Assembly: GCA_964016885.1 (NCBI GenBank)
Contig: OZ024750.1
Location: forward strand, 45,880,001 to 45,944,000
Length of the DNA: 64,000 nt
Direction of reading: 5' to 3'
From: Eledone cirrhosa
Lineage: Eukaryota
The translations under genes and the position numbers were made by a program. Positions 1 through 55,897 of this stretch are shown here, piece after piece. Under the pieces are notes generated by a model. The model was not told the DNA's origin. It ran no database searches and saw nothing but the letters and a program-made list of their open reading frames with translations. How positions within the stretch are numbered: position 1 is the first letter of the stretch; each line of letters begins with the position of its first letter.

Positions 1-288
1 GTTAGAAATCATCAGGACTACATATCCAGTGCTTTTATCGAGAATGACACAGCTAGAGACTTATAGAATACTTAGCTGTGTACAGGAACTGGTTTGAAAG
101 AGCGGTTGCCGGTCCGGCAGAAATTAGAAATTGGAATAAATGCTCTGAAATAGCGATATATATGTGAATATAGACATAGAATATTCGAAAATATTCTGTA
201 TGTTTATAATAAACATTTTGAAGACCTAATCGCTATAGAATAGAATACGTCACGTATTACAATTAGATTCTCGATAAAAGCAAGGGAA

Positions 289-331
289 GTAATCTACGCG
301 TTTCATTCTTGTTAGAAATCATCAGGACTAC
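289..331 (-). ncRNA. Type I hammerhead ribozyme (310-bp unit, inverted arm)
   Basis: Reverse complement of the motif at 754-796. Confidence 0.88.
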
Positions 332-753
332 ATATCCAGTGCTTTTATCGAGAATGACACAGCTAGAGACTTATAGAATACTTAGCTGTGTACAGGAACT
401 GGTTTGAAAGAGCGGTTGCCGGTCCGGCAGAAATTAGAAATTGGAATAAATGCTCTGAAATAGCGATATATATGTGAATATAGACATAGAATATTCGAAA
501 ATATTCTGTATGTTTATAATAAACATTTTGAAGACCTAATAGCGATTAGGTCTTCAAAATGTTTATTATAAACATACAGAATATTTTCGAATATTCTATG
601 TCTATATTCACATATATATCGCTATTTCAGAGCATTTATTCCAATTTCTAATTTCTGCCGGACCGGCAACCGCTCTTTCAAACCAGTTCCTGTACACAGC
701 TAAGTATTCTATAAGTCTCTAGCTGTGTCATTCTCGATAAAAGCACTGGATAT

Positions 754-796
754 GTAGTCCTGATGATTTCTAACAAGAATGAAACGCGTAGATTAC
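754..796 (+). ncRNA. Type I hammerhead ribozyme, minimal, with palindromic stem III
   Basis: GTAGTC-CTGATGA-tTTCT aaca AGAAt-GAAA-CGCG-TA-GATTAC. Stem I is GTAGTC/GATTAC, extended by ATTCTCGATAAAAGCA (730-745) / TGCTTTTATCGAGAAT (803-818). Cleavage triplet GUA. Confidence 0.9.
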
Positions 797-1063
797 TTCC
801 CTTGCTTTTATCGAGAATCTAATTGTAATACGTGACGTATTCTATTCTATAGCGATTAGGTCTTCAAAATGTTTATTATAAACATACAGAATATTTTCGA
901 ATATTCTATGTCTATATTCACATATATATCGCTATTTCAGAGCATTTATTCCAATTTCTAATTTCTGCCGGACCGGCAACCGCTCTTTCAAACCAGTTCC
1001 TGTACACAGCTAAGTATTCTATAAGTCTCTAGCTGTGTCATTCTCGATAAAAGCACTGGATAT

Positions 1064-1106
1064 GTAGTCCTGATGATTTCTAACAAGAATGAAACGCGTA
1101 GATTAC
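1064..1106 (+). ncRNA. Type I hammerhead ribozyme (310-bp unit copy)
   Basis: Identical to 754-796, offset +310. Confidence 0.88.
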
Positions 1107-1373
1107 TTCCCTTGCTTTTATCGAGAATCTAATTGTAATACGTGACGTATTCTATTCTATAGCGATTAGGTCTTCAAAATGTTTATTATAAACATACAGA
1201 ATATTTTCGAATATTCTATGTCTATATTCACATATATATCGCTATTTCAGAGCATTTATTCCAATTTCTAATTTCTGCCGGACCGGCAACCGCTCTTTCA
1301 AACCAGTTCCTGTACACAGCTAAGTATTCTATAAGTCTCTAGCTGTGTCATTCTCGATAAAAGCACTGGATAT

Positions 1374-1416
1374 GTAGTCCTGATGATTTCTAACAAGAAT
1401 GAAACGCGTAGATTAC
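1374..1416 (+). ncRNA. Type I hammerhead ribozyme (310-bp unit copy)
   Basis: Identical to 754-796, offset +620. Confidence 0.88.
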
Positions 1417-1683
1417 TTCCCTTGCTTTTATCGAGAATCTAATTGTAATACGTGACGTATTCTATTCTATAGCGATTAGGTCTTCAAAATGTTTATTATA
1501 AACATACAGAATATTTTCGAATATTCTATGTCTATATTCACATATATATCGCTATTTCGGAGCATTTATTCCAATTTCTAATTTCTGCCGGACCGGCAAC
1601 CGCTCTTTCAAACCAGTTCCTGTACACAGCTAAGTATTCTATAAGTCTCTAGCTGTGTCATTCTCGATAAAAGCACTGGATAT

Positions 1684-1726
1684 GTAGTCCTGATGATTTC
1701 TAACAAGAATGAAACGCGTAGATTAC
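1684..1726 (+). ncRNA. Type I hammerhead ribozyme (310-bp unit copy)
   Basis: Identical to 754-796, offset +930. Confidence 0.88.
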
Positions 1727-1865
1727 TTCCCTTGCTTTTATCGAGAATCTAATTGTAATACGTGACGTATTCTATTCTATAGCGATTAGGTCTTCAAAAT
1801 GTTTATTATAAACATACAGAATATTTTCGAATATTCTATGTCTATATTCACATATATATATATAT

Positions 1866-2100
1866 GAAGGCGTGTGGCTGAGTGGTTAGAGAATTGGATT
1901 CGCAATCGTGAGGTTGTGAGTTCGATTCCTGGAACAGGCGATGCGTTATGTCCTTGAGCAAGACACTTTATTTCACGTTGCTCCTTCTACCTGGAGTTGC
2001 GACCGATAGATAGTATTAGCAATTGCAAAGACCAACGGAAACATAGTTCCCTCGGTCCGATTTGACGAAAGTCGATCGTTCCTATATAATCGTTCCTATA
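1866..2100 (+). mobile_element. tRNA-derived SINE, family A
   Basis: Pol III A box TGGCTGAGTGG and B box GTTCGATTCC. Homologous copies at 37090 and 45224. Flanked by (TA)n. Confidence 0.8.
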
Positions 2101-7771: not shown

Positions 7772-7815
<44 letters not shown>

Positions 7816-7860
7816 TAAACAAATAATGAACAAACAATTCCTTATATTAAACAAAAAAAG

Positions 7861-8015
7861 TTCACTATTTAACGATCGTTTCTAGGGTATATATGTGTTG
7901 TAATTGGTATGCATATTTAACAGATCTATGTACAAAATTATACAAAATTATACAAATTATCAAGATTAAATATACATACCTAACTCATATATACGCCGTC
8001 TTCAGAAATAATGAA
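7861..8015 (-). ncRNA. Type I hammerhead in PLE pseudo-LTR (long stem II)
   Basis: Minus strand: TTCATTATTT-CTGAAGA-cGGcGTATATATG...CATATATACCCta-GAAA-CGATCG-TT-AAATAGTGAA. Confidence 0.82.
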
Positions 8016-8784
8016 GTATATTTATTGATAATAACAACAATTCAAAATATCAGTTCAAAATTGACCAATGAAAACACAAAGGGTTAAAAAGCAGTTTGGT
8101 GTGTGTATATACATGTAAAACACTACACACATTTTACAATAATGTGTGTATAATCTGTATGTGCATACTAAAAAGATGGATGCAAATAAAAAATTTCAAG
8201 GTTAATATCTCTGTAAGCTTAATGCGCTGATAAGATACGCAATGATACTTATGGAGTCAAGCATATAAATATATTTTGTTCATACTCACACATATCAGTA
8301 TAATCACACATACATGTGCGTATATATATAAATATACACATAACCACGAACACACAAACACACACACTCCCCCACTCACATTTATATATGTGGATATAAA
8401 ATCATAAGCAAATAGAAATTAAGTCACTCACATAAACACACTGGTACACACATTTCAAGATCAAGATACAGAAATTAGGTGGGAGGGGGGGGGAGGGGTC
8501 AGTATTAGACTGTCAGACCAGACAACCTTAATATAAATGTATCTATAAATTATGAAAAATAAAAAAATAAAAACAATAAAATATAATACATATAATATAA
8601 TGTACATACGCATACAGATATACATACACATACAAACATGTATGCGCACATAGAGATATCTATACATACATACATACACACATACCTATACTGTCATACA
8701 CACACATACATTTACACGAACATACACATACACATATAAAAAGATATAAATACGGACACACACACGCGCAACACATACATACAT

Positions 8785-8831
<47 letters not shown>

Positions 8832-8940
8832 TATACACACACACGTAGACTCATATATATATACATACACATACATACATTTATACACAAACATATATAT
8901 CCCACACTCATACCACTATAAAAACACATACAAACATCCA

Positions 8941-8989
<49 letters not shown>

Positions 8990-9202
8990 ACATACACACA
9001 CGTACACACATATGTATATATACATACATATATACACACACACACATATATATATACACACACACACATAAAATACAGACATGCACATATATATATATAT
9101 ATATATATATTTCATTACTCTTATATATACACATAGTATATATACATACACAACCTCACTTATACACATATACACATAAGTTATATTACAATAATAATAA
9201 AG

Positions 9203-9247
<45 letters not shown>

Positions 9248-9390
9248 TATACACACATATACACATATACATACACATACATACACATACATACATACAT
9301 ACACATACATACATACACCTAAATATAAACATATATAAATACACACATACGAATAAAGACATATATTCACACATAGACACCTATATTCAC

Positions 9391-9424
<34 letters not shown>

Positions 9425-9454
9425 CTATATACACACACATACACATACATACAC

Positions 9455-9492
<38 letters not shown>

Positions 9493-11297
9493 GCACACAC
9501 ATACAGACACACATACACACTCACATATATATATATATATATATATATGTGTATGTGAGTGTGCGCAAATACATATATATATATATACACACACACATAC
9601 AAACACACACAAACTCATACATATGCATACGTACACACACACACACATATATCACATAGATACGAAGATAAACATATAAATAGAGAGACATACAAATATA
9701 TACAGAACCCATATACACATACATACAAACACGCATATACATATATATACATATATACACACATATATATTCCTATATACAAGCATACACATACACACAC
9801 ATATATACATATACATACACATATACATACCACACATTCACATACACGTACATATATAATACATATATATACATATATATACATACATATGTATGTACAA
9901 TCATATATACACACTCAATCTTACATTCATATTTACATGCTCATATATGTATTTTTATATTTAGAAATAAATACCAAAAAAAAAAAAAAAAAAAAAAAAA
10001 CCTATATAGACACCCATCTACACATATATTCATACATATACACTTACAAAAACAGATGATAATAGTATGGGGGAAAGGGGGGGTTTGGAGAAGGGGATCA
10101 AAGTAAATATATGTTTCAAGAAACATATAATATTTTCCATATCTTAATTCAATGTATGTTCCTACATATTTTCAGTGCTAGAAAATACGAAATCTATGCA
10201 TCACAAAATAAAAAAGTATACTATTAATCATATGTCAACTAAACCAAAGATAGTCAACATATTGATTTCCAAGGTATAAATTAGTTAGGTTTATAATATT
10301 TGAGGCAGAATTATGAAGTCAAACAGTAGTAGATTATTAATTACATTATAACTAAATTAAAGTTAATAACGTTATGGTATCAATATTAGGAGATGAATTT
10401 AGTAATAGGGAAAAGAAACCCAAATAAAAATAAAATAAAGTATTACATCGGTAGTAGCATATAAATTATATGTTAACTAAGTTAAAAATTATATATTTAT
10501 TTCAATAGTATATGTTAATTAGTATATGTTAATTAGGTATACAATACATAAAGCAGATATTGTATTTCATCAATAGCATAATATAATTATACGCAAATAA
10601 AAATCAAAATTAATACGCACACATATACATATACATACACATACACATACATATACATATACATACACATATATATATATATATATATACATATATATAC
10701 ACATACATACATATATAGTCACATAAATATACATACAGATACACATACAACACATACATATACATATACATATAGATATACATATCTTTTTCAAAAAATT
10801 TTTGCACAGAATATATTAACTAGGTATATATCCAAAAACACCTCCCATTCTATGATTACATGACATTCTGCAATTCGTCTGTACAAGGATACTAATTTTA
10901 AGCAAATTAAAGTTAAAATTAAAGTTTTAGGTTGATTAAAGCTAAAACCAAATAATAAATATATTTCCAAAATGTATATTAATTAGGTCAATAATACTAA
11001 AAATTCTTTCTCCGTCATAGGATACATGATATTATTTTGTTATATTTTATCTGTAAAAGAATTATAATAAAAAAAATTATAATAAAAGGTTAAACTAAAT
11101 TAAAAAATTATAATAAAAGGTTAAAATAAGTTAAAATTAATCTATAAATTAAATTACTGAATATATATTAGTAATATTTAAAGGTTTTTCAAAATTAATG
11201 ATTACATAATATTTTCTCATCTGTAATAAAATATTAATTAAATTAAATTTATAGGTTAACTAACATTTAAATTAAATTAAATTCTAGAATAATGTTA

Positions 11298-13739
11298 TTA
11301 ATTAGGTTTATAATATTTAAATGTTTTTTTTAGTTTATGATTACACGATATAATTAATTCCTGTCTTTTATTTAATAAGATATCCCTAGACTTCATTATT
11401 TCAAATAGTTCTTGGGAACATAATCTACATTCCTTTCTATTATTTTGATAAGGGGTGGCTCTTTTGAGCACACTCCAGGTCAAATCATATTTTATATTTT
11501 TATTTTTATAACTATTGATTTTTTCTGCTAGAGATGTTGTATTAGCCAGTGCGGCATTTTTAAAGCTATGTTTGTGGGTATTATATCTTGTCTTAAAATT
11601 GTTAGAGGTAGCTCCTATATATGAACAAATAGAATCTTTAGTTTTAACATTACATTTATAGACTATGTTGTTAACAAGACAATTCCCTTTTAATGGGCAG
11701 TTTGTTTTGTTTCTACAGTTACATCCTTTCGTTAATTCTGTATTTGAGGAGATATTATTGTTAATTTGATGTACTGGTGGTATACTTATAGTTTTCTTAC
11801 ATTTATATGCATTATATGCACTTATATTTTGTTTTATGTTATTTGTTGTAGAATATGAGAATTTAACTGTAGACCTATTTAAGATTTGATGGTATTTGTG
11901 GTTTGGCGGGAAGTTTTTCTCAAGGATATAAAAAAATTTTTTAGCAATATTATCCTTAACTTGTAAATTAAAAGGAGCATTATACCAAGTAACTCGTCTA
12001 TTACGGTTTCTATGTTGTTTATTATTTTTATTATTTTTATATGTTGTATCATGATTTTTACTAGGAGGAATAATGTTAATGATCTCACCACAACTATTTT
12101 TAGTTATATTTGTAGATTTAGGTGTTTTATCTTTTTTATTAGGAGTTTTATTATTAATATTTATTATAGTCTTATGATGAGTAGTTTTTTGAGGGTTACT
12201 ATACTTTATATTAAAAGATTTAGTATTTTGGGGTATACTGTGGGTGGCATTTAGGTGTGTACTTTTCATTTGGTGTTTGTTGGTAATATTATGCTGTATG
12301 CTTTCAGTATTTTTAGTAGAAGGTATATACTCTAATCTATTTTTGTGGCCACTTCTATCTAGAGCTTCATTATAAAAGGTCGCATTTTTATCAAATACAT
12401 CTTGGTTAGAAGAAAGGTTAGAAATTCTAAGTGATATATTATATGCAAGGTTTTTAAGGATAGATTTAGGGTGATTAGATTGTGAGTGTATGTAATGTAA
12501 GTTTTGGTTAGGTTTATGGTAAGGTTGGTATATACCCGTAGCTAAATCTAAAGTTATATCTAGGAAATTTACTACTTTACTTGTTTTTTCAAAAGTAATA
12601 TTAAGGTTATAATAGTCTTTAAGGAAAGTTCTAATATGCTTTTTGTTTTTTTCGATTTCTGAAAGGCTAAGGTTGTTAGAAAGAAGAAGACAGTCATCAC
12701 GATATAAACCACCTTTGAGGTGGGGAAAAGAGGCATTTATGTTGAAAAGGAGAAAGAGGCCCACAAGATCAGTAATTTGGGCAGAATCGCTTGAACCCAT
12801 AGTAATATCAAAAAGATTACTATAAGTGTTTCTGGTCCAGTATTCATTCTGAAATTCAATAAGTGTTTGTCTAGCATGTGTAATAATGTTAATGTCATCC
12901 GAAGTTAAACTAGATCTATTTTTAGCAAATATTAATGCTTTGTTCAGGAGTATGGGTGATATAGAAGAATAATAATTATCTATATCAAACTGTAGGAAAG
13001 AAGCAGAAGATTTACACCTAATATTTTTAAACCAATTAATTACCTGGGAGGTGTTTTCCCAGAGTGGTAAAATAACGTATTTTCTTATTTGTGGGATGAC
13101 TCTATCTAAAATTTTTTTGCTAATTATTCCAATATCTGATTTGGAGGGACATATAAGTCTAATAGAAGGATTAGAGTTAAAGTTAGATTTGTGATCTTTC
13201 AGGTTGAAGTGTGGACTTCTCAATGCCAAAGGTTCAGTTCTATCTTCAATATTTAGTTTTTTTACTATGTTGTGTGTTTTGTTGTTGATGTTGGTGAGTG
13301 ACGCATTATTAGATTTTTTATAATTTTTTCTGAGTTCTTTATATATGAACTCATTATAATGTTCAATATCCATATGATACAAGTTACCAGTTTTGTCCGA
13401 GTGGACATGGATTTTTTTAGACTTTTTTAGGTCCAATAGGGTAGAATCAAGGTCCTTTTGAAAGACGGATTTATACTTTTTAAATTTTAGGTGTTTAATT
13501 AAATTAAAAAGGTCTTTCTCGAAGTCTTCAAGTAAAAAGTTGTGTGGTGGATTCTTGTAAGTGTTGAAATCATACATATATTTCCGATCTGCTTGTTTAG
13601 ATTTTCTATCAAAGTGGTAGGCTCTCCATCTAACCCTTCTGATAAAATTATTAGTTTTCTGAATCATAAGGAGTAAGAAGTCGTCCTTAGAAGGTATTGG
13701 TATGTTTTTTAAGGAGGTTCCTAAATATTGTTTTTCCAT
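11298..13739 (-). CDS. Penelope-like element polyprotein: reverse transcriptase plus C-terminal GIY-YIG endonuclease (probably Naiad clade)
   Basis: Open 813 aa from the first ATG (track ORF 820 aa from TTG at 13760). RT motifs: SDKTGN, FDIDNYYSSI, MGSSDS, YRDD, FLDITL. CxCx5Cx5C motif (CNCRNKTNCPLKGNC). GIY-YIG-like NIVYKC..SYIGAT..FKTRYNTH. Terminal CRLC..E. Confidence 0.93.
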   Translation of the reverse strand: MEKQYLGTSLKNIPIPSKDDFLLLMIQKTNNFIRRVRWRAYHFDRKSKQADRKYMYDFNTYKNPPHNFLLEDFEKDLFNLIKHLKFKKYKSVFQKDLDSTLLDLKKSKKIHVHSDKTGNLYHMDIEHYNEFIYKELRKNYKKSNNASLTNINNKTHNIVKKLNIEDRTEPLALRSPHFNLKDHKSNFNSNPSIRLICPSKSDIGIISKKILDRVIPQIRKYVILPLWENTSQVINWFKNIRCKSSASFLQFDIDNYYSSISPILLNKALIFAKNRSSLTSDDINIITHARQTLIEFQNEYWTRNTYSNLFDITMGSSDSAQITDLVGLFLLFNINASFPHLKGGLYRDDCLLLSNNLSLSEIEKNKKHIRTFLKDYYNLNITFEKTSKVVNFLDITLDLATGIYQPYHKPNQNLHYIHSQSNHPKSILKNLAYNISLRISNLSSNQDVFDKNATFYNEALDRSGHKNRLEYIPSTKNTESIQHNITNKHQMKSTHLNATHSIPQNTKSFNIKYSNPQKTTHHKTIININNKTPNKKDKTPKSTNITKNSCGEIINIIPPSKNHDTTYKNNKNNKQHRNRNRRVTWYNAPFNLQVKDNIAKKFFYILEKNFPPNHKYHQILNRSTVKFSYSTTNNIKQNISAYNAYKCKKTISIPPVHQINNNISSNTELTKGCNCRNKTNCPLKGNCLVNNIVYKCNVKTKDSICSYIGATSNNFKTRYNTHKHSFKNAALANTTSLAEKINSYKNKNIKYDLTWSVLKRATPYQNNRKECRLCSQELFEIMKSRDILLNKRQELIISCNHKLKKTFKYYKPN

Positions 13740-14082
13740 TGTGATATGGATGATGGACAATTGAAAGAGCTCAACTAAATGTATATGGGTTTACAAAATC
13801 ATACATATATATATGTTTATACATAAATATAAAATTAATACACACATACAGTACAAAAATACGAATATTTCCGTGAAAATAGGAGCAAAATTATGTAGAT
13901 AAATCTACCAAGAGTTTACGGTAGTGTCCAATCCGTATGAAGAACTCAATGTATTCCGGATATCATGGAAAGAAGAGATGTAATGAAAATCCAATTTCGG
14001 TGAAAGATAAACGGTATACAGAGTCAAGATAAAATATTAAACAAATAATGAACAAACAATTCCTTATATTAAACAAAAAAAG

Positions 14083-14237
14083 TTCACTATTTAACGATCG
14101 TTTCTAGGGTATATATGTGTTGTAATTGGTATGCATATTTAACAGATCTATGTACAAAATTATACAAAATTATACAAATTATCAAGATTAAATATACATA
14201 CCTAACTCATATATACGCCGTCTTCAGAAATAATGAA
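14083..14237 (-). ncRNA. Type I hammerhead in the PLE repeat upstream of the ORF
   Basis: Identical to 7861-8015, offset +6222. Confidence 0.82.
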
Positions 14238-15005
14238 GTATATTTATTGATAATAACAACAATTCAAAATATCAGTTCAAAATTGACCAATGAAAACACA
14301 AAGGGTTAAAAAGCAGTTTGGTGTGTGTATATACATGTAAAACACTACACACATTTTACAATAATGTGTGTATAATCTGTATGTGCATACTAAAAAGATG
14401 GATGCAAATAAAAAATTTCAAGGTTAATATCTCTGTAAGCTTAATGCGCTGATAAGATACGCAATGATACTTATGGAGTCAAGCATATAAATATATTTTT
14501 TTCATACTCACACATATCAGTATAATCACACATACATGTGCGTATATATATAAATATACACATAACCACGAACACACAAACACACACACTCCCCCACTCA
14601 CATTTATATATGTGGATATAAAATCATAAGCAAATAGAAATTAAGTCACTCACATAAACACACTGGTACACACATTTCAAGATCAAGATACAGAAATTAG
14701 GTGGGAGGGGGGGGAGGGGTCAGTATTAGACTGTCAGACCAGACAACCTTAATATAAATGTATCTATAAATTATGAAAAATAAAAAAATAAAAACAATAA
14801 AATATAATACATATAATATAATGTACATACGCATACAGATATACATACACATACAAACATGTATGCGCACATAGAGATATCTATACATACATACATACAC
14901 ACATACCTATACTGTCATACACACACATACATTTACACGAACATACACATACACATATAAAAAGATATAAATACGGACACACACACGCGCAACACATACA
15001 TACAT

Positions 15006-15054
<49 letters not shown>

Positions 15055-15163
15055 TATACACACACACGTAGACTCATATATATATACATACACATACATA
15101 CATTTATACACAAACATATATATCCCACACTCATACCACTATAAAAACACATACAAACATCCA

Positions 15164-15208
<45 letters not shown>

Positions 15209-15421
15209 ACATACACACACGTACACACATATGTATATATACATACATATATACACACACACACATATATATATACACACACACACATAAAATACAGACA
15301 TGCACATATATATATATATATATATATATTTCATTACTCTTATATATACACATAGTATATATACATACACAACCTCACTTATACACATATACACATAAGT
15401 TATATTACAATAATAATAAAG

Positions 15422-15466
<45 letters not shown>

Positions 15467-15609
15467 TATACACACATATACACATATACATACACATACA
15501 TACACATACATACATACATACACATACATACATACACCTAAATATAAACATATATAAATACACACATACGAATAAAGACATATATTCACACATAGACACC
15601 TATATTCAC

Positions 15610-15645
<36 letters not shown>

Positions 15646-15675
15646 CTATATACACACACATACACATACATACAC

Positions 15676-15713
<38 letters not shown>

Positions 15714-17510
15714 GCACACACATACAGACACACATACACACTCACATATATATATATATATATATATATGTGTATGTGAGTGTGCGCAAATACATATATA
15801 TATATATACACACACACATACAAACACACACAAACTCATACATATGCATACGTACACACACACACACATATATCACATAGATACGAAGATAAACATATAA
15901 ATAGAGAGACATACAAATATATACAGAACCCATATACACATACATACAAACACGCATATACATATATATACATATATACACACATATATATTCCTATATA
16001 CAAGCATACACATACACACACATATATACATATACATACACATATACATACCACACATTCACATACACGTACATATATAATACATATATATACATATATA
16101 TACATACATATGTATGTACAATCATATATACACACTCAATCTTACATTCATATTTACATGCTCATATATGTATTTTTATATTTAGAAATAAATACCAAAA
16201 AAAAAAAAAAAAACCTATATAGACACCCATCTACACATATATTCATACATATACACTTACAAAAACAGATGATAATAGTATGGGGGAAAGGGGGGGTTTG
16301 GAGAAGGGGATCAAAGTAAATATATGTTTCAAGAAACATATAATATTTTCCATATCTTAATTCAATGTATGTTCCTACATATTTTCAGTGCTAGGAAATA
16401 CGAAATCTATGCATCACAAAATAAAAAAGTATACTATTAATCATATGTCAACTAAACCAAAGATAGTCAACATATTGATTTCCAAGGTATAAATTAGTTA
16501 GGTTTATAATATTTGAGGCAGAATTATGAAGTCAAACAGTAGTAGATTATTAATTACATTATAACTAAATTAAAGTTAATAACGTTATGGTATCAATATT
16601 AGGAGATGAATTTAGTAATAGGGAAAAGAAACCCAAATAAAAATAAAATAAAGTATTACATCGGTAGTAGCATATAAATTATATGTTAACTAAGTTAAAA
16701 ATTATATATTTATTTCAATAGTATATGTTAATTAGTATATGTTAATTAGGTATACAATACATAAAGCAGATATTGTATTTCATCAATAGCATAATATAAT
16801 TATACGCAAATAAAAATCAAAATTAATACGCACACATATACATATACATACACATACACATACATATACATATACATACACATATATATATATATATATA
16901 TACATATATATACACATACATACATATATAGTCACATAAATATACATACAGATACACATACAACACATACATATACATATACATATAGATATACATATCT
17001 TTTTCAAAAAATTTTTGCACAGAATATATTAACTAGGTATATATCCAAAAACACCTCCCATTCTATGATTACATGACATTCTGCAATTCGTCTGTACAAG
17101 GATACTAATTTTAAGCAAATTAAAGTTAAAATTAAAGTTTTAGGTTGATTAAAGCTAAAACCAAATAATAAATATATTTCCAAAATGTATATTAATTAGG
17201 TCAATAATACTAAAAATTCTTTCTCCGTCATAGGATACATGATATTATTTTGTTATATTTTATCTGTAAAAGAATTATAATAAAAAAAATTATAATAAAA
17301 GGTTAAACTAAATTAAAAAATTATAATAAAAGGTTAAAATAAGTTAAAATTAATCTATAAATTAAATTACTGAATATATATTAGTAATATTTAAAGGTTT
17401 TTCAAAATTAATGATTACATAATATTTTCTCATCTGTAATAAAATATTAATTAAATTAAATTTATAGGTTAACTAACATTTAAATTAAATTAAATTCTAG
17501 AATAATGTTA

Positions 17511-18991
17511 TTAATTAGGTTTATAATATTTAAATGTTTTTTTTAGTTTATGATTACACGATATAATTAATTCCTGTCTTTTATTTAATAAGATATCCCT
17601 AGACTTCATTATTTCAAATAGTTCTTGGGAACATAATCTACATTCCTTTCTATTATTTTGATAAGGGGTGGCTCTTTTGAGCACACTCCAGGTCAAATCA
17701 TATTTTATATTTTTATTTTTATAACTATTGATTTTTTCTGCTAGAGATGTTGTATTAGCCAGTGCGGCATTTTTAAAGCTATGTTTGTGGGTATTATATC
17801 TTGTCTTAAAATTGTTAGAGGTAGCTCCTATATATGAACAAATAGAATCTTTAGTTTTAACATTACATTTATAGACTATGTTGTTAACAAGACAATTCCC
17901 TTTTAATGGGCAGTTTGTTTTGTTTCTACAGTTACATCCTTTCGTTAATTCTGTATTTGAGGAGATATTATTGTTAATTTGATGTACTGGTGGTATACTT
18001 ATAGTTTTCTTACATTTATATGCATTATATGCACTTATATTTTGTTTTATGTTATTTGTTGTAGAATATGAGAATTTAACTGTAGACCTATTTAAGATTT
18101 GATGGTATTTGTGGTTTGGCGGGAAGTTTTTCTCAAGGATATAAAAAAATTTTTTAGCAATATTATCCTTAACTTGTAAATTAAAAGGAGCATTATACCA
18201 AGTAACTCGTCTATTACGGTTTCTATGTTGTTTATTATTTTTATTATTTTTATATGTTGTATCATGATTTTTACTAGGAGGAATAATGTTAATGATCTCA
18301 CCACAACTATTTTTAGTTATATTTGTAGATTTAGGTGTTTTATCTTTTTTATTAGGAGTTTTATTATTAATATTTATTATAGTCTTATGATGAGTAGTTT
18401 TTTGAGGGTTACTATACTTTATATTAAAAGATTTAGTATTTTGGGGTATACTGTGGGTGGCATTTAGGTGTGTACTTTTCATTTGGTGTTTGTTGGTAAT
18501 ATTATGCTGTATGCTTTCAGTATTTTTAGTAGAAGGTATATACTCTAATCTATTTTTGTGGCCACTTCTATCTAGAGCTTCATTATAAAAGGTCGCATTT
18601 TTATCAAATACATCTTGGTTAGAAGAAAGGTTAGAAATTCTAAGTGATATATTATATGCAAGGTTTTTAAGGATAGATTTAGGGTGATTAGATTGTGAGT
18701 GTATGTAATGTAAGTTTTGGTTAGGTTTATGGTAAGGTTGGTATATACCCGTAGCTAAATCTAAAGTTATATCTAGGAAATTTACTACTTTACTTGTTTT
18801 TTCAAAAGTAATATTAAGGTTATAATAGTCTTTAAGGAAAGTTCTAATATGCTTTTTGTTTTTTTCGATTTCTGAAAGGCTAAGGTTGTTAGAAAGAAGA
18901 AGACAGTCATCACGATATAAACCACCTTTGAGGTGGGGAAAAGAGGCATTTATGTTGAAAAGGAGAAAGAGGCCCACAAGATCAGTAATTT
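17511..18991 (-). pseudogene. 5'-truncated second copy of the PLE ORF (from just upstream of YRDD through the endonuclease)
   Basis: Protein identical to the C-terminal ~488 aa of the 11298-13739 ORF; truncated at the inversion junction. Confidence 0.9.
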
Positions 18992-19447
18992 CTGTATCTT
19001 GATCTTGAAATGTGTGTACCAGTGTGTTTATGTGAGTGACTTAATTTCTATTTGCTTATGATTTTATATCCACATATATAAATGTGAGTGGGGGAGTGTG
19101 TGTGTTTGTGTGTTCGTGGTTATGTGTATATTTATATATATACGCACATGTATGTGTGATTATACTGATATGTGTGAGTATGAAAAAAATATATTTATAT
19201 GCTTGACTCCATAAGTATCATTGCGTATCTTATCAGCGCATTAAGCTTACAGAGATATTAACCTTGAAATTTTTTATTTGCATCCATCTTTTTAGTATGC
19301 ACATACAGATTATACACACATTATTGTAAAATGTGTGTAGTGTTTTACATGTATATACACACACCAAACTGCTTTTTAACCCTTTGTGTTTTCATTGGTC
19401 AATTTTGAACTGATATTTTGAATTGTTGTTATTATCAATAAATATAC

Positions 19448-19602
19448 TTCATTATTTCTGAAGACGGCGTATATATGAGTTAGGTATGTATATTTAATCT
19501 TGATAATTTGTATAATTTTGTATAATTTTGTACATAGATCTGTTAAATATGCATACCAATTACAACACATATATACCCTAGAAACGATCGTTAAATAGTG
19601 AA
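19448..19602 (+). ncRNA. Type I hammerhead in the inverted PLE terminal segment
   Basis: TTCATTATTT (19448-57), CTGAAGA (19458-64) ... GAAA (19581-84), CGATCG, TT, AAATAGTGAA (19593-602). Confidence 0.82.
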
Positions 19603-19787
19603 CTTTTTTTGTTTAATATAAGGAATTGTTTGTTCATTATTTGTTTAATATTTTATCTTGACTCTGTATACCGTTTATCTTTCACCGAAATTGGATTTTC
19701 ATTACATCTCTTCTTTCCATGATATCCGGAATACATTGAGTTCTTCATACGGATTGGACACTACCGTAAACTCTTGGTAGATTTATC

Positions 19788-20056
<269 letters not shown>

Positions 20057-20097
20057 CGTAAATAAGAAAGTTATGAAAATTGACTTACTAAAATTTC

Positions 20098-20176
20098 ACT
20101 CCAACTAATTAGTTTCTGTAAGGGGATAAATATAGTTATGTAATAATTATAGAGAATCCTTACGTCATCAGGGAGT
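20098..20176 (-). ncRNA. Type I hammerhead (inverted copy)
   Basis: Reverse complement of 20610-20688, with 2-3 substitutions in the stem II region. Confidence 0.75.
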
Positions 20177-20609
20177 CTATTCTCATAATTTTCATAACTT
20201 TCTTATTTACGTCTTTCATATCATTGTTCTGCATTCCCCTGCATAGAACCACAAAATTACTAAAACAAAACATATATATTTGCTAGCATAGGTATGCATC
20301 GGTATACATATGTCGGTAGATATATTAATTCTTTACAATTACCTCCAAATTATTTGTTGAGCAAAATTTGCCAAATTACTACTGTGACTGATAGTAGTAG
20401 CTAGGCTCTGTCTTAATAGCACCCCCACTCCAAGCTGGTTAACCTCAGTGTCACGTGATTGATTCTTTTGAATTTGCCACTTGACCAAGAAGGCAGTGAA
20501 TTTTTCAATGGCTTGGAATCTAGCCCCGCTCGTTTTTATCCATCCACTGAATTATTTTTATGTAGGATCCCAGTGTCCCCGCATTGCCTGGAAACTTAGG
20601 TGAGAATAG

Positions 20610-20688
20610 ACTCCCTGATGACGTAAGGCTTCTCTATAGTTATTACATAACTATATTTATCCCCTTACAGAAACTAATTAGTTGGAGT
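20610..20688 (+). ncRNA. Type I hammerhead with extended stem II
   Basis: ACTCC-CTGATGA-cGTAAGG..TATAGTTAT tac ATAACTATA..CCTTACa-GAAA-CTAATTAG-TT-GGAGT. Confidence 0.8.
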
Positions 20689-20852
20689 GAAATTTTAGTA
20701 AGTAAGTCAATTTTCATAACTTTCTTATTTACGTCTTTCATATAACTGTTCTGCATTCCCCTGCATAGAACCACAAAGTTACTAAGACAAAACATATATA
20801 TCTGCTAGCATAGGCATGCATCGGTATACATATGTCGGTAGATATATTAATT

Positions 20853-20908
<56 letters not shown>

Positions 20909-22620: not shown

Positions 22621-22637
22621 CATAACATACATACATA

Positions 22638-23458
22638 CAGGAAATCAACACAAAATACCTTGTTCACAAAAGAAATAGGGATGCAGGCAAAACACCTAGA
22701 TGTGACAACAAGTGCAGACTCTGCAGAATTAACATCGAAGATGTCACCAATGTCATAAGCAGCTGTCTAAAGATGTCATCGCAGTGCTATCTACCTATGA
22801 GGCATGATGTAGTGTCCAAAACAGTGTACAATGCAATCCGTAGAAAAGATAAACCCGATAATAAACACATTAAAAGCTACAGCAATGTGGAAGACATACA
22901 TATACATATTATGAAAGAGTACTGGTGGAATGTTACAGTAAAAACCCCAATAAGATGCGGGCATAACAGTCCAGACATAATGATAAGGGACAGGGAAGCA
23001 TGCACAGTAGTGGAAGTTAGCTGCCCTTCAGATACCAGTATAATATCAAAGATTAGCGAAAAGGAGAATATTTATGCAGAACTGATGATAAATCTGCAGA
23101 TGCTCCAGCCTGATTATGCCTGGGCCTCACAGGAACAGAAAGAACACAACTAGTTAGGAAATTACAAGTACAATTCATTAATGGAACAGTAAAAATATTT
23201 AAAACATTCCAAAAATGTTGCATCTAATAACTGCATATACACATGTACAGATACAAAACATATACACATGCACACATACAACTCAAAACATACACATCCA
23301 CACATACAATAACATCCATATCTACACATGCATGCAGACATGCAAACAATCTACCTAGTTGATGTTGTGTAAATTCCAATGAGAGAGTCTTGTGTCTATG
23401 TTAGAAACCGACTCTCTCTCTATTGGTAAAAAATTGTGAAATTATAAAACTAGAAGAA
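22638..23458 (+). mobile_element. 5'-truncated R4/Dong-like non-LTR retrotransposon (CCHC knuckle plus restriction-like endonuclease), disrupted
   Basis: CRLCRINIEDVTNVISSC..RHDVV..WWN..HNSPDIMI..VEVSCP..EKENIY. The 3' end AAAC.AGAAGAA abuts (CATA)n. Confidence 0.8.
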
Positions 23459-23611
23459 TATACATACATACATACATACATACTTACATAGTGACATACA
23501 TACATGCATTTATACATACATACGTACATAAATACATATATATACATACATACATACATGCTTACATACTGACATACATACATACAAACATTTAGACATA
23601 CATACATGCAA

Positions 23612-25176: not shown

Positions 25177-25402
25177 GTTCTTTTTCTTCCTCGCCCACTT
25201 ATTCCTGAGAGGGTCGTGGTGGCAGACCCCACTCTTTCAAGTGAGTCCTGCCAAAGGCAACTCTCTCTAACTGATCCAGCTGGATTCTCAAGCGTCAACT
25301 TAATCGTATAAGTTCATTGAACTTATAACATGTTATAAGTTCAATGACCTTATAACATGAAGTTCACATGAAGATATGTCACTATCTTTACACCAATTAT
25401 TG

Positions 25403-25463
25403 TATTTTATCTGACGAAAGCGTACTAAAATATTAGTACCCTTGAAATACGTATAATAAAATA
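25403..25463 (+). ncRNA. Type I hammerhead (first of a tandem pair)
   Basis: TATTTTAT-CTGACGA-AAGcGTACTAA aata TTAGTACcCTT-GAAA-TACGTA-TA-ATAAAATA. Confidence 0.85.
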
Positions 25464-25499
25464 AATATGCTTTGTTTTAACCTTCATATCATGTCTCCC

Positions 25500-25567
25500 T
25501 ATTTTATCTGACGAAAACGCAAATGTTATTGCATGATATTTGTTTTTGAAATGCGCATAATAAACTA
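25500..25567 (+). ncRNA. Type I hammerhead (second of a tandem pair)
   Basis: TTTAT-CTGACGA-AAAcGCAAATGTTAT tgc ATGATATTTGTtTTT-GAAA-TGCGCA-TA-ATAAA. Confidence 0.8.
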
Positions 25568-25594
25568 CATGGAACTCTTTTAACCATCTTTTGC

Positions 25595-27543: not shown

Positions 27544-27650
27544 CAGGGTGTCCCCCAAAAATGTATATATACATACATCAACAGCATTCTAACAAATATT
27601 ATTGCCTATGCAGGTAAACAAAGTGTGTATACATTTTTGGGGACACCCTG
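27544..27650. mobile_element. Tc1/mariner-type MITE (~107 bp)
   Basis: TIRs CAGGGTGTCCCC(C)AAAAATGTATA / TATACATTTTTGGGGACACCCTG, followed by TA. Confidence 0.65.
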
Positions 27651-30600
27651 TATAATATATTGTATTATATACGCACACACATATGTGTATATATATTTTG
27701 GGGGACAAAATATATATACACACATATGTGTATATATTTTTGGGGACACCCTGTATAATAAATTAAATTATATACACACACACATATGTGTATATATATT
27801 TTGGGGGACACCCTGTATAATATATTATATTATATAGACACACACATATGTGTGTATATATATTTTTGGGGACACCCTGTATAACATATTATATTATATA
27901 CACACACACATATGTGTATATATATATTTGGGGACACCCTGTATAATATATTATATTATATACTCACACACATATGTGTATATATATGTTTGGGGACACC
28001 CTGTATAATATATTATATTATATACACACACACATATGTGTATATATATGTTTGGGGACACCCTGTATAATATATTATATTATATACAGACACGCATATG
28101 TGTATATATATTTTTGGGGACACCCTGTATAATATATTATAATATATACACACACATATGTGTATATATATTTTGGGGGACACCCTGTATAACATATTAT
28201 ATTATATACACACACATATGTGTGTATATATATTTTTGGGGACACCCTGTATAATATATTATATTATATACACACACACATATGTGTATATATATTTTTG
28301 GGGACACCCTGTATAATATATTATATTATATACACACACGCATATGTGGATATATAATTTTTGGGACACCCTGTATAACATATTATGTTATATACACACA
28401 CATATGTGTGTATATATATTTTTGGCGACACCCTGTATAATATATTATATTATATACACACACACATATGTGTATATATATTTTTGGGACACCCTGTATA
28501 ATATATTATATTATATACACACACACATATGTGTAGATATTTTGGGGGACACCCTGTATAATATATATTGTATACACACACACATATGGGTATATATATT
28601 TTTTGGGACACCCTGTATAACATATTATATTATATACACACACATTTGTGTATATACATTTTTGGGGGACACCCTGTATAATATATTATATTATATACAC
28701 ACAAACATGTGTATATACATTTTTGGGGACACCCTGTATAATATATTATATTATATACACACACACATATGTGTATATATATTTTTGGGGACACCCTGCA
28801 TAATATATTATATTATATACACACACGCATATGTGTATATATATTTTTTGGGACACCCTGTATAACATATTATATTATATACACTCACATATGTGTGTAT
28901 ATATATTTTTGGGGACACCCTGTATAATATATTATATTATATACACACACACATATGTGTATATATATTTTTTGGGACACCCTGTATAATATATTATATT
29001 TTATACACACACGCATATGTGTATATATATTTTTTGGGACACCCTGTATAACATATAATATTATATACACACACATATGTGTATATATATATTTTTGGGG
29101 ACACCCTGTATAATATATTATATTATATACACACACACATATGTGTATATATATTTTTGGGGACACCCTGTATTATATATTATATTATATACACACACAC
29201 ATATGTGTATATATATTTTGGGGGACACCCTGTATAATATATTATATTATATACACACACACATATGGGTATATATATTTTTTGGGACACCCTGTATAAC
29301 ATATTATATTATATTCACACACATTTGTCTATATACATTTTTGGGGGACACCATGTATAATATATTATATTATATACACACAAACATGTGTATATACATT
29401 TTTGGGGACACCCTGTGTAATATATTACATTATATACACACACACATATGTGTGTATATATATTTTTGGGGACACCCTGTATAACATATTATATTATATA
29501 CACACATGTGTGCATATACATTTTGGGGGACACCCTGCATAATATATTATATTATATAGACACACACATATGTGTATATACATTTTCGGGGACACCCTGT
29601 ATAACATATTATATTATATACACACACATATGTGTGTATATATATTTTAGGGGTCACCCACCCTGTATAATATATTATATTATGTACACACATGTGTGCA
29701 TATATATTTTTTGGGACACCGTGTATAATATATTATATTATATACGCACACACATATGTGTGTATATATATTTTTGGGGACACCCTGTATAATATATTAT
29801 ATTATATACACACACACATATGTGTATATACATTTTTGGGGACATCCTGTATAACATATTATATTATATACACACACACATATGTGTATATACATTTTTG
29901 GGGGACACTCTGTATAATATATTACATTATATACACACACACATATGTGTATATATATTTTTGTGGACACCCTGTATAACATATTATATTATATACACAC
30001 ACATTTGTGTATATACATTTTTGGGGGACACCCTGTATAATATATTATATTATATAAACACACACATGCGTATATACATTCTTGGGGGACACCCTGTATA
30101 ATATATTATATTATATACACACACACATATGTGTATATATATATTTTGGGACACCCTGTATAACATATTATATTATATACACACACATATGTGTGTATAT
30201 ATATTTTTGGGGACACCCTGTATAATATATTATATTATATACACACACAATATGTGTTTATACATTTTTGGGGACACCCTTTCTTACATATTATATACAC
30301 ACACATGTGTATATACATTTTGGGGGACACCCTGTATAATATATTATATTATATACACACACACACATGTGTATATACATTTTGGGGGACACCCTGTATA
30401 ATATATTATATTATATACACACACACATATGTGTATATATATTTTTGAGGACACCCTGTATAACATATTATATTATATAACACACATATGTGTATATACA
30501 TTTTCGGGTACACCCTGTATAACACAATATATTATATACACACACACACATGTGTATATACATTTTTGGGGACACCCTTTCTAATATAATATATTATATA

Positions 30601-30733
30601 CACACACATATGCGTATATATATTTTTGGGGACACCCTGTATAATATATTATATTATATACACACACACATATGTGTATATATATTTTTGGGGACACCCT
30701 GTCTAATATATTATATTATATACACACACACAC

Positions 30734-30765
<32 letters not shown>

Positions 30766-30788
30766 TATATTATATACACACACACATG

Positions 30789-30790
<2 letters not shown>
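27620..30790. repeat. ~60-bp minisatellite (~50 units) built from the MITE right TIR plus flank
   Basis: Unit is approximately ATATGTGTATATATATTTTTGGGGACACCCTGTATAATATATTATATTATATACACACACAC. Confidence 0.92.
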
Positions 30791-30819
<29 letters not shown>

Positions 30820-44275: not shown

Positions 44276-44323
44276 ATATATATATGTATAAAACACAGAG
44301 CTGGCATATCTAAGAACTGACTA

Positions 44324-44379
44324 ACTGCCTGATGAGGTCATACCCATTCAATGGCTATCATCGAAATATATATAGCAGT
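44324..44379 (+). ncRNA. Type I hammerhead in a short (TA)n-embedded insert
   Basis: ACTGC-CTGATGA-GGTcATAcCCAT tca ATGGcTATcATC-GAAA-TATATA-TA-GCAGT. Confidence 0.8.
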
Positions 44380-44791
44380 AAATAAAGGATTATGAGTTCA
44401 TGCAATTGACTTATGTTTTCGTCACTATATATATATATGTATATATATACATTTATATATGTATACATATATATATATATATATGTATATATGTGTGTAT
44501 ATAAGTATATATATATAAATGTATGTATGCAATCATGGTGTCTGTGTACACATGTATGTGTGTGTTTGTGTGTTGTGTGTATATGTAAGTGTATATATAT
44601 GTGTATATGTATGCATATAAACAGGTGTGCATGCATTCATATGAAGACTTTCTATGGAATGTAGATAATTATGTACAAGAAGGCAAATATGCTGTAAATA
44701 CGTACATACATACATAAATATACATTGTGTATATATATATATATATATGTATGTATGAGTGGGTGTATATGTATGTATGTATATATATATA

Positions 44792-47394: not shown

Positions 47395-48650
47395 AATAGA
47401 AATAAAAAGAGAGAGAGTCGGTTTCTAACATAGTTACAAGACTCTCTCATTGGAATTTACACCACATCAACTTGGTAGATATGCATACATGTCTGCATGC
47501 ATCCATGTGTAGATATGGATGTTATTGTATGTGTGGATGTGTATGTTTTGAGTTGTATGTGTGCATGTGTATATGCTATGTATCTGAACAAGTGTATATG
47601 CAGTTATTAGATGGAGTATCTTTGGAATATTTTACATATATTTCCTGTTCCATTAATGGATTGTACTTTTAATTTCGCTAACTAGTTGTGTTCTTTCTGT
47701 TTCTCTGAAGCCCAGCTTCTCAGGATTTGTACTCAGGCAGTGTGTATATGTATGTATGTTCTTCTGGTTTAATAATTTCACAAATGTTAAAACCAGAACA
47801 TACATACATATATACACTGCCTCAGTACAATCCTCTATGTTTGCATGTATGTATGTCTAAATGTATGTATGTATGTCAGTATGTAAGCATGTATTTATAT
47901 AAGTATGTATGTACGTATGTATGTATAAATGCATGTATGTATGTCACTATGTAAGTATGTATGTATGTATGTATGTATGTATGTATGTATGTATGTATGT
48001 ATGTATGTATGTATGTATATTCTTCTAGTTTTATAATTTCACAATATTTTACCAATAGAGAGAGTGTCGGTTTCTAACATAGACACAAGATTCTCATTGG
48101 AATTTACACAGCATCAACTAAGTAGAATTGTTTGCATGTCTGATTGCATGTGTAGATATGGATGTTATTGTATGTGTGGATGTGGATGTTTTGAGTTGTA
48201 TGTGTGCCTGTGTATATGCTTTGTATCTGTATATGTGTATATGCAGTTATTAGATGCAACATTTTTGGAATGTTTTACATATTTTTACTGTTCCATTAAT
48301 GGATTGTACTTGTAATTTCCTAACTGGATGTGTTCTTTCTATTCCTGTGAAGCCTAGCTTCTCAAGATTTGTATTGAGGCAGTTACTAACATACCCCAGT
48401 GCCCCAATAATCACAGGCATAAATCTGAAGGTGTAATCAGGGTGGAGTATCTGCAGATTTCTCATCAGCTCTGCATAAATATTTTCCTTTTCGCTAACCT
48501 TTGATATTATATTGGCATCTGCTGTCCAGCTAACTTCCACTACTGTGCATGCTTTCTTTTCGCTGTCCCATATCATAATATTTTTTCTGTTATGCCTGCA
48601 TTTTATTGGGGTTTTTACTGGAATATTCCACCAGTACTCTTTCATATTAT
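47395..48650 (-). mobile_element. R4/Dong-like RLE retrotransposon composite (inverted paralog of 22910-23940)
   Basis: ORF 48250-48645 reads KEYWWN..HNRKNIMIWD..VEVS..EKENIY..PVIIGALG. Shares the hairpin and microsatellite spacers with 23460-23730. Confidence 0.78.
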
Positions 48651-49109
48651 GTATATATGTATGTATGTATGTTTGTATAAATGCATGTATGTATATATGT
48701 CAGTATGTAAGTATGTATGTATATATGTATGTACGTATGCATGTATGTATGTATTACGTTAGTCTGTATGTATGTATGTTAATATGTATATATATAATCT
48801 TTTTGGAGTGCAGCAAAGTGTGTCGATGATATTCTGGAGAGTCCTATGCAGCGCAGCTTGATAGACTAAACTGTTTCTATTGTTAAGCAATATTTAATTC
48901 TCATATTTTTTCTGTTGATTATCAGTCCTTAGTACAGCTCCAGACTTCCTCATTTACTGTGGCAAATATTTATACTATTTTCCCTATTTCAATGTCACAA
49001 TTATATATGAATGTTTATTGTACTGCAAACTGATTATGGGTACGGTATGGTGGTTTGCAAAATATAGAACCCTTATTTGCGAGAAACTGAATCATTTACT
49101 GGACACTCA

Positions 49110-54257: not shown

Positions 54258-54301
54258 TATTTTCCATATAATACATTCACACATACATATATACATACAT
54301 A

Positions 54302-55011: not shown

Positions 55012-55040
55012 CATACATATATACATATATATATTTATAA

Positions 55041-55130
<90 letters not shown>

Positions 55131-55164
55131 AGATTTGAATGGATACAGTTTAGTTGAAAGGAAT

Positions 55165-55281
55165 TTATTGACACGTGTTTCTATAACAGTTACATAACCT
55201 AAAACAGCTATCTACAAACTTTTAGTTATGCAGACATTCAATATTTCAATGTTATTATTTACTGTCATTTCATCAGAATAA
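55165..55281 (-). ncRNA. Type I hammerhead (inverted arm)
   Basis: Reverse complement of 55591-55707. Confidence 0.8.
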
Positions 55282-55707: not shown

Positions 55708-55857
55708 ATTCCTTTCAACTAAACTGTATCTATTCAAATCTTTCTATTTTTCTCCGGATTACTTTTGGAACTACAACTGGAACCGTCGAGCAAACTCTAC
55801 GTGAGCTGATAATCTACCGTGTGTAATATTTATATTACAACACAACGGAAAATACTG

Positions 55858-55897
<40 letters not shown>

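What the first reader, a model, noticed from the sequence alone, without database searches (positions are those of the whole stretch)
1..1859. Very young 310-bp retrozyme concatemer with a near-perfect palindromic inversion
The units are nearly identical and each has an intact HHR with a long bulged stem I extension. Each also has several hairpins (AATACGT-g-ACGTATT, TGCCGG-a-CCGGCA, GAATATT..AATATTC). The array flips at ..AAGACCTAAT-agcg-ATTAGGTCTT.. (531-554) and ends where the unit's own CATATATAT runs into (TA)n. A non-integer unit count and a terminal inversion fit rolling-circle reverse transcription of a 310-nt circular RNA followed by a fold-back (inference). It would otherwise be mis-annotated as satellite DNA.
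Basis: partly seen in the sequence, partly recalled or inferred. Interest (0 to 1): 0.8.

Follow-up and report, generated by a model that had tools for sequence, protein, structure and literature searches.

The report
Young retrozyme array with Penelope-type inversion
Six nearly identical 310-base repeats, carrying a self-cutting hammerhead RNA motif, form a young parasitic retroelement whose mirror-image head and landing site in a TA repeat are the known marks of insertion by Penelope-like jumping genes, so it is a new example of a known kind.

Summary
In detail: 539-1859 is 4.26 copies of a 310-bp unit (one mismatch), and 1-540 is the exact reverse complement of 545-1084. Each complete unit has a type I hammerhead (0 of 20,000 shuffles pass the descriptor). 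Its minimal helix III and U·U in helix II predict cleavage mainly as a dimer. The array ends at the unit's only (AT)4 run, inside a (TA)n tract. Best reading: a young non-LTR retrozyme inserted in trans by a Penelope-like element (PLE). Head-to-head palindromes and (TA)n targets are published PLE marks, and five other inverted-arm elements lie in this window, including an intact Hydra-type PLE and an aged near-palindrome. Rolling-circle copying is possible but not required; a multimeric transcript fits equally. This junction is not independently confirmed (artefact about 20%), and its left end lies outside the window. Unexpectedly, 20 listed runs under 17 organism labels hold the unit; in 2 of 4 runs laid it is letter-identical with only traces of the host's SINE. 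Library cross-talk is likelier than horizontal spread. New member of a known kind.

The parts
1..540 (-). Inverted arm, 1.74 units, cut by the window start
   Evidence: Exact reverse complement of 545-1084, 0 mismatches
539..544 (.). Head-to-head junction: 2-nt overlap (539-540) and 4-nt spacer (541-544)
   Evidence: a 2-bp fold-back is possible at 100 of 310 phases, so the overlap itself says little
539..1859 (+). Sense array, 4.26 x 310-bp units, 34% GC, longest Met-started ORF 30 aa, one variant at 1559
730..818 (+). Type I hammerhead of unit 1 with extended stem I: 16-bp helix 730-745:803-818, 3-bp helix 748-750:798-800, 3x1 internal loop, helix I 754-759:791-796, core from 760, helix II with U·U base and 4 pairs, palindromic helix III 784-789, cleavage after 790
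1064..1106 (+). Hammerhead of unit 2 (cleavage after 1100)
1374..1416 (+). Hammerhead of unit 3 (cleavage after 1410)
1684..1726 (+). Hammerhead of unit 4 (cleavage after 1720)
289..331 (-). Hammerhead in the inverted arm; a second is cut by the window start at 1-21
   Evidence: mirror arithmetic
539..625 (+). Predicted long hairpin closed by 539-546:618-625; both array breakpoints fall on its two closing strands
   Evidence: Pair probabilities 0.49-0.61 in the circular ensemble; noticed after the fact
1852..1865 (.). (AT)7 target tract; 1852-1859 also equals the unit's only (AT)4 run
1866..2095 (+). Flanking SINE-like repeat, very high copy in run X1; 3 of 3 other copies whose head was found in the window also follow TA-rich tracts
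7810..19793 (-). Neighbouring Hydra-type PLE insertion: 6222-bp unit, intact 813-aa ORF (11301-13739), 99.6% tandem partial copy, 808-nt inverted arm, (TA)n at both ends. Candidate helper class only; no homology to the 310-bp unit

Best explanation
A very young non-LTR retrozyme insertion made in trans by a Penelope-like element. Steps: (1) an array elsewhere is transcribed into multimers; neighbouring hammerheads pair through the palindromic helix III and cut as dimers, giving 310-nt monomers that may be ligated to circles (inferred from structure and from PMC7229834). (2) A PLE endonuclease nicks a (TA)n tract and the nicked end pairs with the RNA's one AUAUAUAU run, 612-619 (the junction is shown; the enzyme is inferred). 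(3) The reverse transcriptase copies 4.26 units and stops at phase 539, away from the cleavage site; template a circle about 55%, an uncleaved multimer about 45% (judgement). (4) The cDNA 3' end snaps back on a 2-bp AT stem with a 4-nt loop and primes copying of itself, giving the head-to-head palindrome (geometry shown; snap-back inferred). A Hydra-clade PLE is the likeliest helper, being intact, young, (TA)n-targeting and 6 kb away, but no sequence links the two.
For: Array, palindrome and junction geometry. Hammerhead beyond chance, with the canonical metazoan helix sizes described in PMC4209133; the dimer minimum-energy fold pairs the two helix III palindromes, and closing helix III in a monomer costs about 5 kcal/mol. 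Circular fold -67.8 kcal/mol, z -4.4, 0 of 60 shuffles as low, helices I and II left formed. The right end falls on the unit's only (AT)4 run, 8 of 310 phases. PLE insertions are partial tandems with an adjacent inverted 5'-truncated copy and (TA)n bias (PMC8557442), with palindromes at head-to-head junctions ascribed to self-priming (PMC3846280). Five other inverted-arm elements in this window; one, 57670-58017, has a 44-nt spacer and arms 143 of 152 alike, so such structures exist as real aged DNA here. The neighbouring ORF has all Hydra motifs looked for. The unit is a closed 340-nt contig in 3 of 4 runs laid.
Against: No strand-change joint and no piece bridging 1859/1860 is listed in any of the 4 runs laid; contigs drop rare variants and part of the tables was not shown. 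The left end, any target-site duplication and the PLE 'tail' are outside the window; no genome is held. No homology between the unit and the neighbouring PLE, which also lacks a canonical hammerhead, although Hydra elements are said to carry one. Rfam score is far below cut-off. Two weak helices may leave little activity; 8 of 9 predicted Xenopus dimers did not cleave in 10.64898/2026.07.22.740005. Spacers of the other inverted elements are 44 to 4286 nt, none as short as 4. Dispersed copies were not shown.
Confidence: 0.65

Rival explanations
1. The retrozyme array is real but the inverted arm is a read chimera or assembly artefact (fold-back read at a contig end).
For: Arms are 100% identical with a 4-nt spacer; the arm runs off position 1, which may be a contig start (not known); no strand-change joint in 4 of 4 runs laid; long perfect palindromes are unstable in vivo (own knowledge).
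Against: The same runs list no bridge at the right-hand flank either, so they cannot show single-locus junctions; five other inverted-arm elements in the window, two with clearly diverged arms (93.5% and 143 of 152); palindromic junctions are expected of PLE insertions.
Confidence: 0.2
2. A hammerhead-bearing satellite or pLTR remnant amplified in place by slippage or unequal exchange, the inversion arising later by break repair (fold-back at a cruciform or stalled fork), with no reverse transcription of a multimer.
For: The local-amplification model is proposed in 10.64898/2026.07.22.740005; dispersed copies and RNA are not shown; one private variant at 1559.
Against: The sharp right end at the unit's only (AT)4 run inside a pre-existing TA tract; no diverged edge units in the window; the same architecture recurs in unrelated elements of the window.
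Confidence: 0.08
3. Real and PLE-made, but by two cDNAs primed from both nicked strands and joined at their 3' ends, not by snap-back of one cDNA.
For: The Anolis PLE protein nicks and extends both strands and is modelled as a dimer (PMC11167929); the neighbouring PLE's inversion joins two different phases through 6 shared bases.
Against: Two independent cDNAs would have to stop within about 6 nt of the same phase of 310, unless there is a strong stop there; the breakpoints do lie on one predicted helix.
Confidence: 0.07

Closest known systems
Metazoan non-LTR retrozymes (Cervera and de la Pena 2020, PMC7229834; abstract, sections 13, 14, 15, 17 and passages read)
   Same: Tandem 150-450-bp unit, under 50% GC, one type I hammerhead per unit, self-paired circle that leaves the ribozyme free, PLE proposed as helper.
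   Different: An inverted head and a (TA)n junction are not mentioned in the passages found for 'invert', 'palindrom' and 'microsatellite'. The ribozyme joins both axolotl weaknesses, the one-pair helix III of HHR_Amex1 and the U·U of HHR_Amex2, whereas most invertebrate ones were reported to cleave as monomers. Units there are called species-specific and heterogeneous; this one is identical in runs under different organism labels.
Vertebrate non-LTR retrozymes as non-autonomous PLE derivatives (Li, Clavereau, Pollet 2026, 10.64898/2026.07.22.740005; parts 1-3 of 5 read, supplements closed)
   Same: [quoted passage not shown]
   Different: Their evidence is co-occurrence and pLTR phylogeny, with no mollusc sampled; here the evidence is the shape of one insertion, and no parent pLTR was found in the window.
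Insertion architecture of endonuclease-bearing PLEs (PMC3846280 passages; PMC8557442 section 11 and passages; PMC11167929 parts 1-2 of 4)
   Same: Partial tandem, 5' truncation, adjacent inverted copy joined head to head, palindrome at the junction, AT-rich or (TA)n target, internal start of reverse transcription.
   Different: The element is non-coding; the palindrome arm is at least 540 bp against 18-38-bp palindromes in the rotifer pLTR passages; the right junction shares 8 bases with the target, whereas the Anolis enzyme started at a non-homologous site in vitro.

Membership tests
Non-LTR retrozyme | Tandem repeat of 150-450 bp, at least two units | tested here: met
   4.26 + 1.74 units of 310 bp
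Non-LTR retrozyme | Type I hammerhead in every unit | tested here: met
   5 of 5 hammerhead positions wholly inside the window; 0 of 20,000 shuffles; Rfam below cut-off
Non-LTR retrozyme | Low GC, no coding frame | tested here: met
   34% GC; longest Met-started ORF 30 aa
Non-LTR retrozyme | No LTR, primer-binding site or polypurine tract | not tested
   No LTR layout is visible; PBS and PPT were not searched for
Non-LTR retrozyme | Self-paired circle with the ribozyme unblocked | tested here: met
   z -4.4; helix I pair probabilities 0.85-1.0, helix II 0.74-0.83; prediction only
Non-LTR retrozyme | Multiple dispersed genomic loci | tested here: inconclusive
   No genome held; unit depth 128 in X1 against about 2-7 for five of the seven SINE-copy contigs shown suggests more than six units, but the tool warns depth is no copy number
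Non-LTR retrozyme | Expressed as linear and circular RNA; self-cleaves | not testable with these tools
   A closed contig cannot tell tandem DNA, multimer and circle apart; needs northern blot and cleavage assay
PLE-type insertion (works like) | Inverted copy joined head to head at the 5' end, palindrome at the junction | tested here: met
   not confirmed by independent reads
PLE-type insertion (works like) | (TA)n target | tested here: met
   Right end only
PLE-type insertion (works like) | 30-40-bp tail at one end; target-site duplication | not testable with these tools
   Left end lies outside the window
Autonomous PLE | RT and GIY-YIG ORF within the element | tested here: not met
   the array is non-coding
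Derivative of the neighbouring Hydra-type PLE | Homology to its pLTR | tested here: not met
   Only TA-rich chance matches, best 18 bp
Hydra clade (neighbouring ORF 11301-13739) | RW[K/R], DKT, CxCX5C linker, CxxC and CxH, no CX2-5CxxC, C-terminal endonuclease, (TA)n target | tested here: met
   (TA)n ends; Pfam finds no family in it and weak GIY-YIG in 2 of 11 relatives scanned; no tree was built
Hydra clade (neighbouring ORF 11301-13739) | Canonical hammerhead in the element; length under 3 kb | tested here: not met
   One CTGANGA in 6222 bp, without the rest of the fold; so called Hydra-type only

The most novel reading that the evidence does not exclude
The 310-nt circle moves between species. 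The same sequence is held by runs under 17 organism labels; in two laid runs it is letter-identical while the host's SINE is present only in traces, and it is missing from a DNA run of one holder's organism label and from two sister runs of another holder's sample. It could be a retrozyme that spreads horizontally or persists as an RNA-only, viroid-like circle in other animals, and this palindromic insertion would be a fresh landing made by a resident PLE.
Probability: 0.07. Interest if true: 0.85.

Novelty: new member of a known kind. Interest (0 to 1): 0.38.

Why it matters
Which enzyme moves animal retrozymes is still argued from co-occurrence and pLTR trees. One almost unmutated insertion that carries the PLE signature (start in a (TA)n tract, head-to-head palindrome), with an intact PLE ORF nearby, gives a defined substrate, target and candidate enzyme for a direct trans-mobilisation test. 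If the cross-species presence survived contamination controls it would be horizontal spread of a ribozyme-bearing animal circular RNA, which would matter much more. Otherwise it is one more retrozyme family, in a host group for which my searches found none described.

Tried and rejected
Own genome: none held. Rfam: 0 hits at gathering score; the fluoride riboswitch hit at E 6.2 is treated as chance. ARAGORN: 0 genes. Exact-pattern scans: 0 hits in metagenome contigs and viral contigs; genome contigs not scanned. Sequencing runs: no RNA holder listed, which is no evidence either way. Homology of the unit to the neighbouring PLE: none. Pol III box patterns (recalled consensus): loose A-box-like matches, no B box on the sense strand, no promoter identified. 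The 2-bp microhomology at the fold is not evidence: 100 of 310 phases allow one. My first label 'Naiad' for the neighbouring ORF was dropped, since Naiads have an N-terminal endonuclease. Cluster look-up gave no names for 5 relatives and the exact ORF is not in the collection. Plain DNA contamination from a genome like X1's is rejected for X2 and X6: unit to SINE depth is about 1:3,800 in X1 but 1:2 and 1:1 there (bin 1949-1967). Literature searches for a described octopus hammerhead repeat and for retrozyme horizontal transfer (listing only) found none; the search on palindrome artefacts (listing only) gave nothing useful. PMC5785218 was not held. Earlier-findings look-ups by sequence, place and six words were empty.

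Full report
OBSERVATION. The + strand from 539 to 1859 holds 4.26 copies of a 310-bp unit, identical except 1559 A>G. Bases 1-540 are the exact reverse complement of 545-1084, around a 4-nt spacer; 539-540 fit both sides. The left arm is cut by the window start and no genome is held, so its true end is unknown. The unit is 34% GC and non-coding (longest Met-started ORF 30 aa).

RIBOZYME. A type I hammerhead descriptor hits at 760, 1070, 1380, 1690 (+) and 325 (-), and in 0 of 20,000 shuffled units. Rfam gives only HH9 at 19.2 bits, E 0.13, against a cut-off of 52 (nothing at gathering score), but that alignment places the core, loop 2 and the stem I bulge in register. Helix I has 6 bp and continues through a 3x1 loop, 3 bp, a 2x2 loop and 16 bp. 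Helix II has 4 bp over a U·U pair. Helix III is one pair closed by a palindromic tetraloop; closing it in a monomer costs about 5 kcal/mol, while the two-copy minimum-energy fold pairs the two palindromes. PMC4209133 (passages and section 5) describes this as the canonical metazoan form that needs a second copy. In PMC7229834 (section 15) axolotl ribozymes with either weakness cleaved 6% and 22% in an hour as monomers and much better as dimers. So 'intact' is right for the core, but dimer-dependent, possibly weak, cleavage is expected (inference). As a circle the unit folds at -67.8 kcal/mol, z -4.4, 0 of 60 shuffles as low, with helices I and II formed.

ENDS. The right end lies on the unit's only (AT)4 run (612-619 phase, 8 of 310 positions), inside a 14-nt TA tract in front of a SINE-like repeat. 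The three other copies of that SINE head found in the window also follow TA-rich tracts, so the tract was there first. Neither end is at the cleavage site (172 and 58 nt away), so the cDNA did not simply run off a cleaved RNA. Read on the - strand, the insert is antisense cDNA from the TA tract for 4.26 units, a 2-bp fold with a 4-nt loop, then a copy of itself. A 2-bp fold is possible at 100 of 310 phases, so it carries no weight; the exact mirror does. Both breakpoints fall on the two strands of one predicted 8-bp helix (539-546:618-625); I noticed this afterwards and cannot explain it.

CONTEXT. The window holds five other elements with an inverted arm. One is a PLE at 7810-19793: intact 813-aa ORF, 99.6% tandem partial copy, 808-nt fully complementary arm, (TA)n at both ends. 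Its protein has 14,124 relatives at E up to 0.001, no Pfam family, and the Hydra-clade motifs listed in PMC8557442 section 11; it lacks a canonical hammerhead and shares no homology with the unit. The others are 20046-20857 (hammerhead in both arms, 93.5%), 55125-55858 (core in both arms, 99.2%, spacer 119), 56004-56936 (100%, spacer 507) and 57670-58017 (143 of 152, spacer 44; by eye each arm has a different core mutation). Three of the five have long (TA)n at both ends, two a short TA run at one end. Diverged arms cannot be read chimeras. The host looks like an octopus-type cephalopod; this is recalled from the SINE and microsatellite content and was not tested.

LITERATURE. PLE insertions are partial tandems, often with an adjacent inverted 5'-truncated copy, and Naiad and Hydra elements favour (TA)n (PMC8557442, passages and section 11). 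Palindromes at head-to-head junctions are consistent and were read as self-priming (PMC3846280, passages). The Anolis PLE nicks AT-rich DNA on both strands, starts inside the RNA at a non-homologous site and mainly uses uncleaved RNA (PMC11167929, parts 1-2 of 4). Retrozymes were proposed to use PLEs (PMC7229834) and tied to pLTRs by phylogeny (10.64898/2026.07.22.740005, parts 1-3 of 5; its supplements are closed and might bear on arrangement). Term searches in those two papers and PMC7761336 (passages) found no inverted retrozyme array. An Octopus vulgaris repeat annotation has no 'ribozyme' or 'retrozyme' in its main text (PMC13282606, passages); supplements of these papers were not read. 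PMC6431247 (passages) added nothing.

OTHER RUNS. Of 24 runs listed, 20 hold 72-100% of the unit's 25 sampled words, under 17 organism labels in 16 studies; X1 may be the source. I laid 4 of the 24 on 1550-2095. In X1, X2 and X6 the unit is one closed 340-nt contig with one other letter, placed where 1559 lies for X2, at depth 128, 11.9 and 10. No variant row falls in the unit. No strand-change joint and no bridge over 1859/1860 is listed; contigs drop rare forms and many rows were not shown, so the inversion is neither confirmed nor refuted. X1 is full of the flanking SINE (3,334 contigs laid); X2 and X6 have 15 and 5 contigs in all, mostly 151-nt pieces at depth 2-3. In 1,938 million letters of raw DNA reads of organism M (X23) no read fits the unit beyond its TA run, although X15 of the same label holds 84% of the words; X21 and X22 hold none although X20 of the same sample does. 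Run-specific presence with traces of the host SINE points to cross-talk between libraries, from material in which the unit is far richer than in X1's DNA (abundant RNA is the simplest guess, a genome with a large array another). Some holders may be close relatives. Library types are not on record, so expression is not shown.

MECHANISM AND RIVALS. Most likely (0.65): multimeric transcript, dimer cleavage, perhaps circularisation; PLE nick in (TA)n; priming at the unit's AT run; 4.26 units of cDNA; snap-back and self-copying. Shown: geometry, ribozyme fold, target. Inferred: enzyme, template form (circle about 55%, multimer about 45%), snap-back. Rivals: inversion an artefact (0.2), local satellite amplification with later fold-back (0.08), two cDNAs joined end to end (0.07). 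The non-integer count does not separate circle from multimer.

VERDICT. A member of the non-LTR retrozymes by every sequence feature tested, with RNA-level features untested; it works like a PLE passenger. New member of a known kind, interest 0.38. Earlier AI notes of this scan reach similar readings in other genomes; they are unchecked and not used as support.

Noticed in passing
window 7810-19793: Young Hydra-type PLE with an intact 813-aa ORF, about 3.5 kb of microsatellite-rich sequence after the ORF, a tandem partial copy and an 808-nt inverted arm joined through 6 shared bases; no canonical hammerhead found, though degenerate core-like words follow the ORF.
   Followed up: partly
window 57670-58017: Aged near-palindrome, arms 143 of 152 alike, 44-nt spacer; by eye a hammerhead in each arm with a different core mutation.
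   Followed up: partly
window 20046-20857, 55125-55858, 56004-56936: Three more short elements with inverted arms next to TA runs; hammerhead or core in both arms of the first two.
   Followed up: partly
window 25400-25570 and 44320-44385: Further type I hammerhead-like motifs with palindromic helix III (cores at 25411, 25508, 44329), beside (TA)n; a 74-nt imperfect palindrome at 25294-25367.
   Followed up: no
window 539-546 and 618-625: Both array breakpoints lie on the two strands of one predicted 8-bp helix; may mark where reverse transcription starts and stops, or be chance.
   Followed up: partly
runs X2, X6, X15, X20-X23: The unit is letter-identical in runs that hold only traces of the host SINE, and absent from sister or DNA runs of the same labels.
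   Followed up: partly
window 27623-30801: 62-bp minisatellite, about 50 copies, 88% matches.
   Followed up: no
window 22626-23559, 47594-48699, 54300-55127: Several 85-90% alike fragments with coding remnants that look like a non-LTR retrotransposon C-terminus (recalled resemblance).
   Followed up: no
window 59696-60730: Low-complexity tandem frames rich in Thr, Pro and Asn, repeating about every 200 bp.
   Followed up: no
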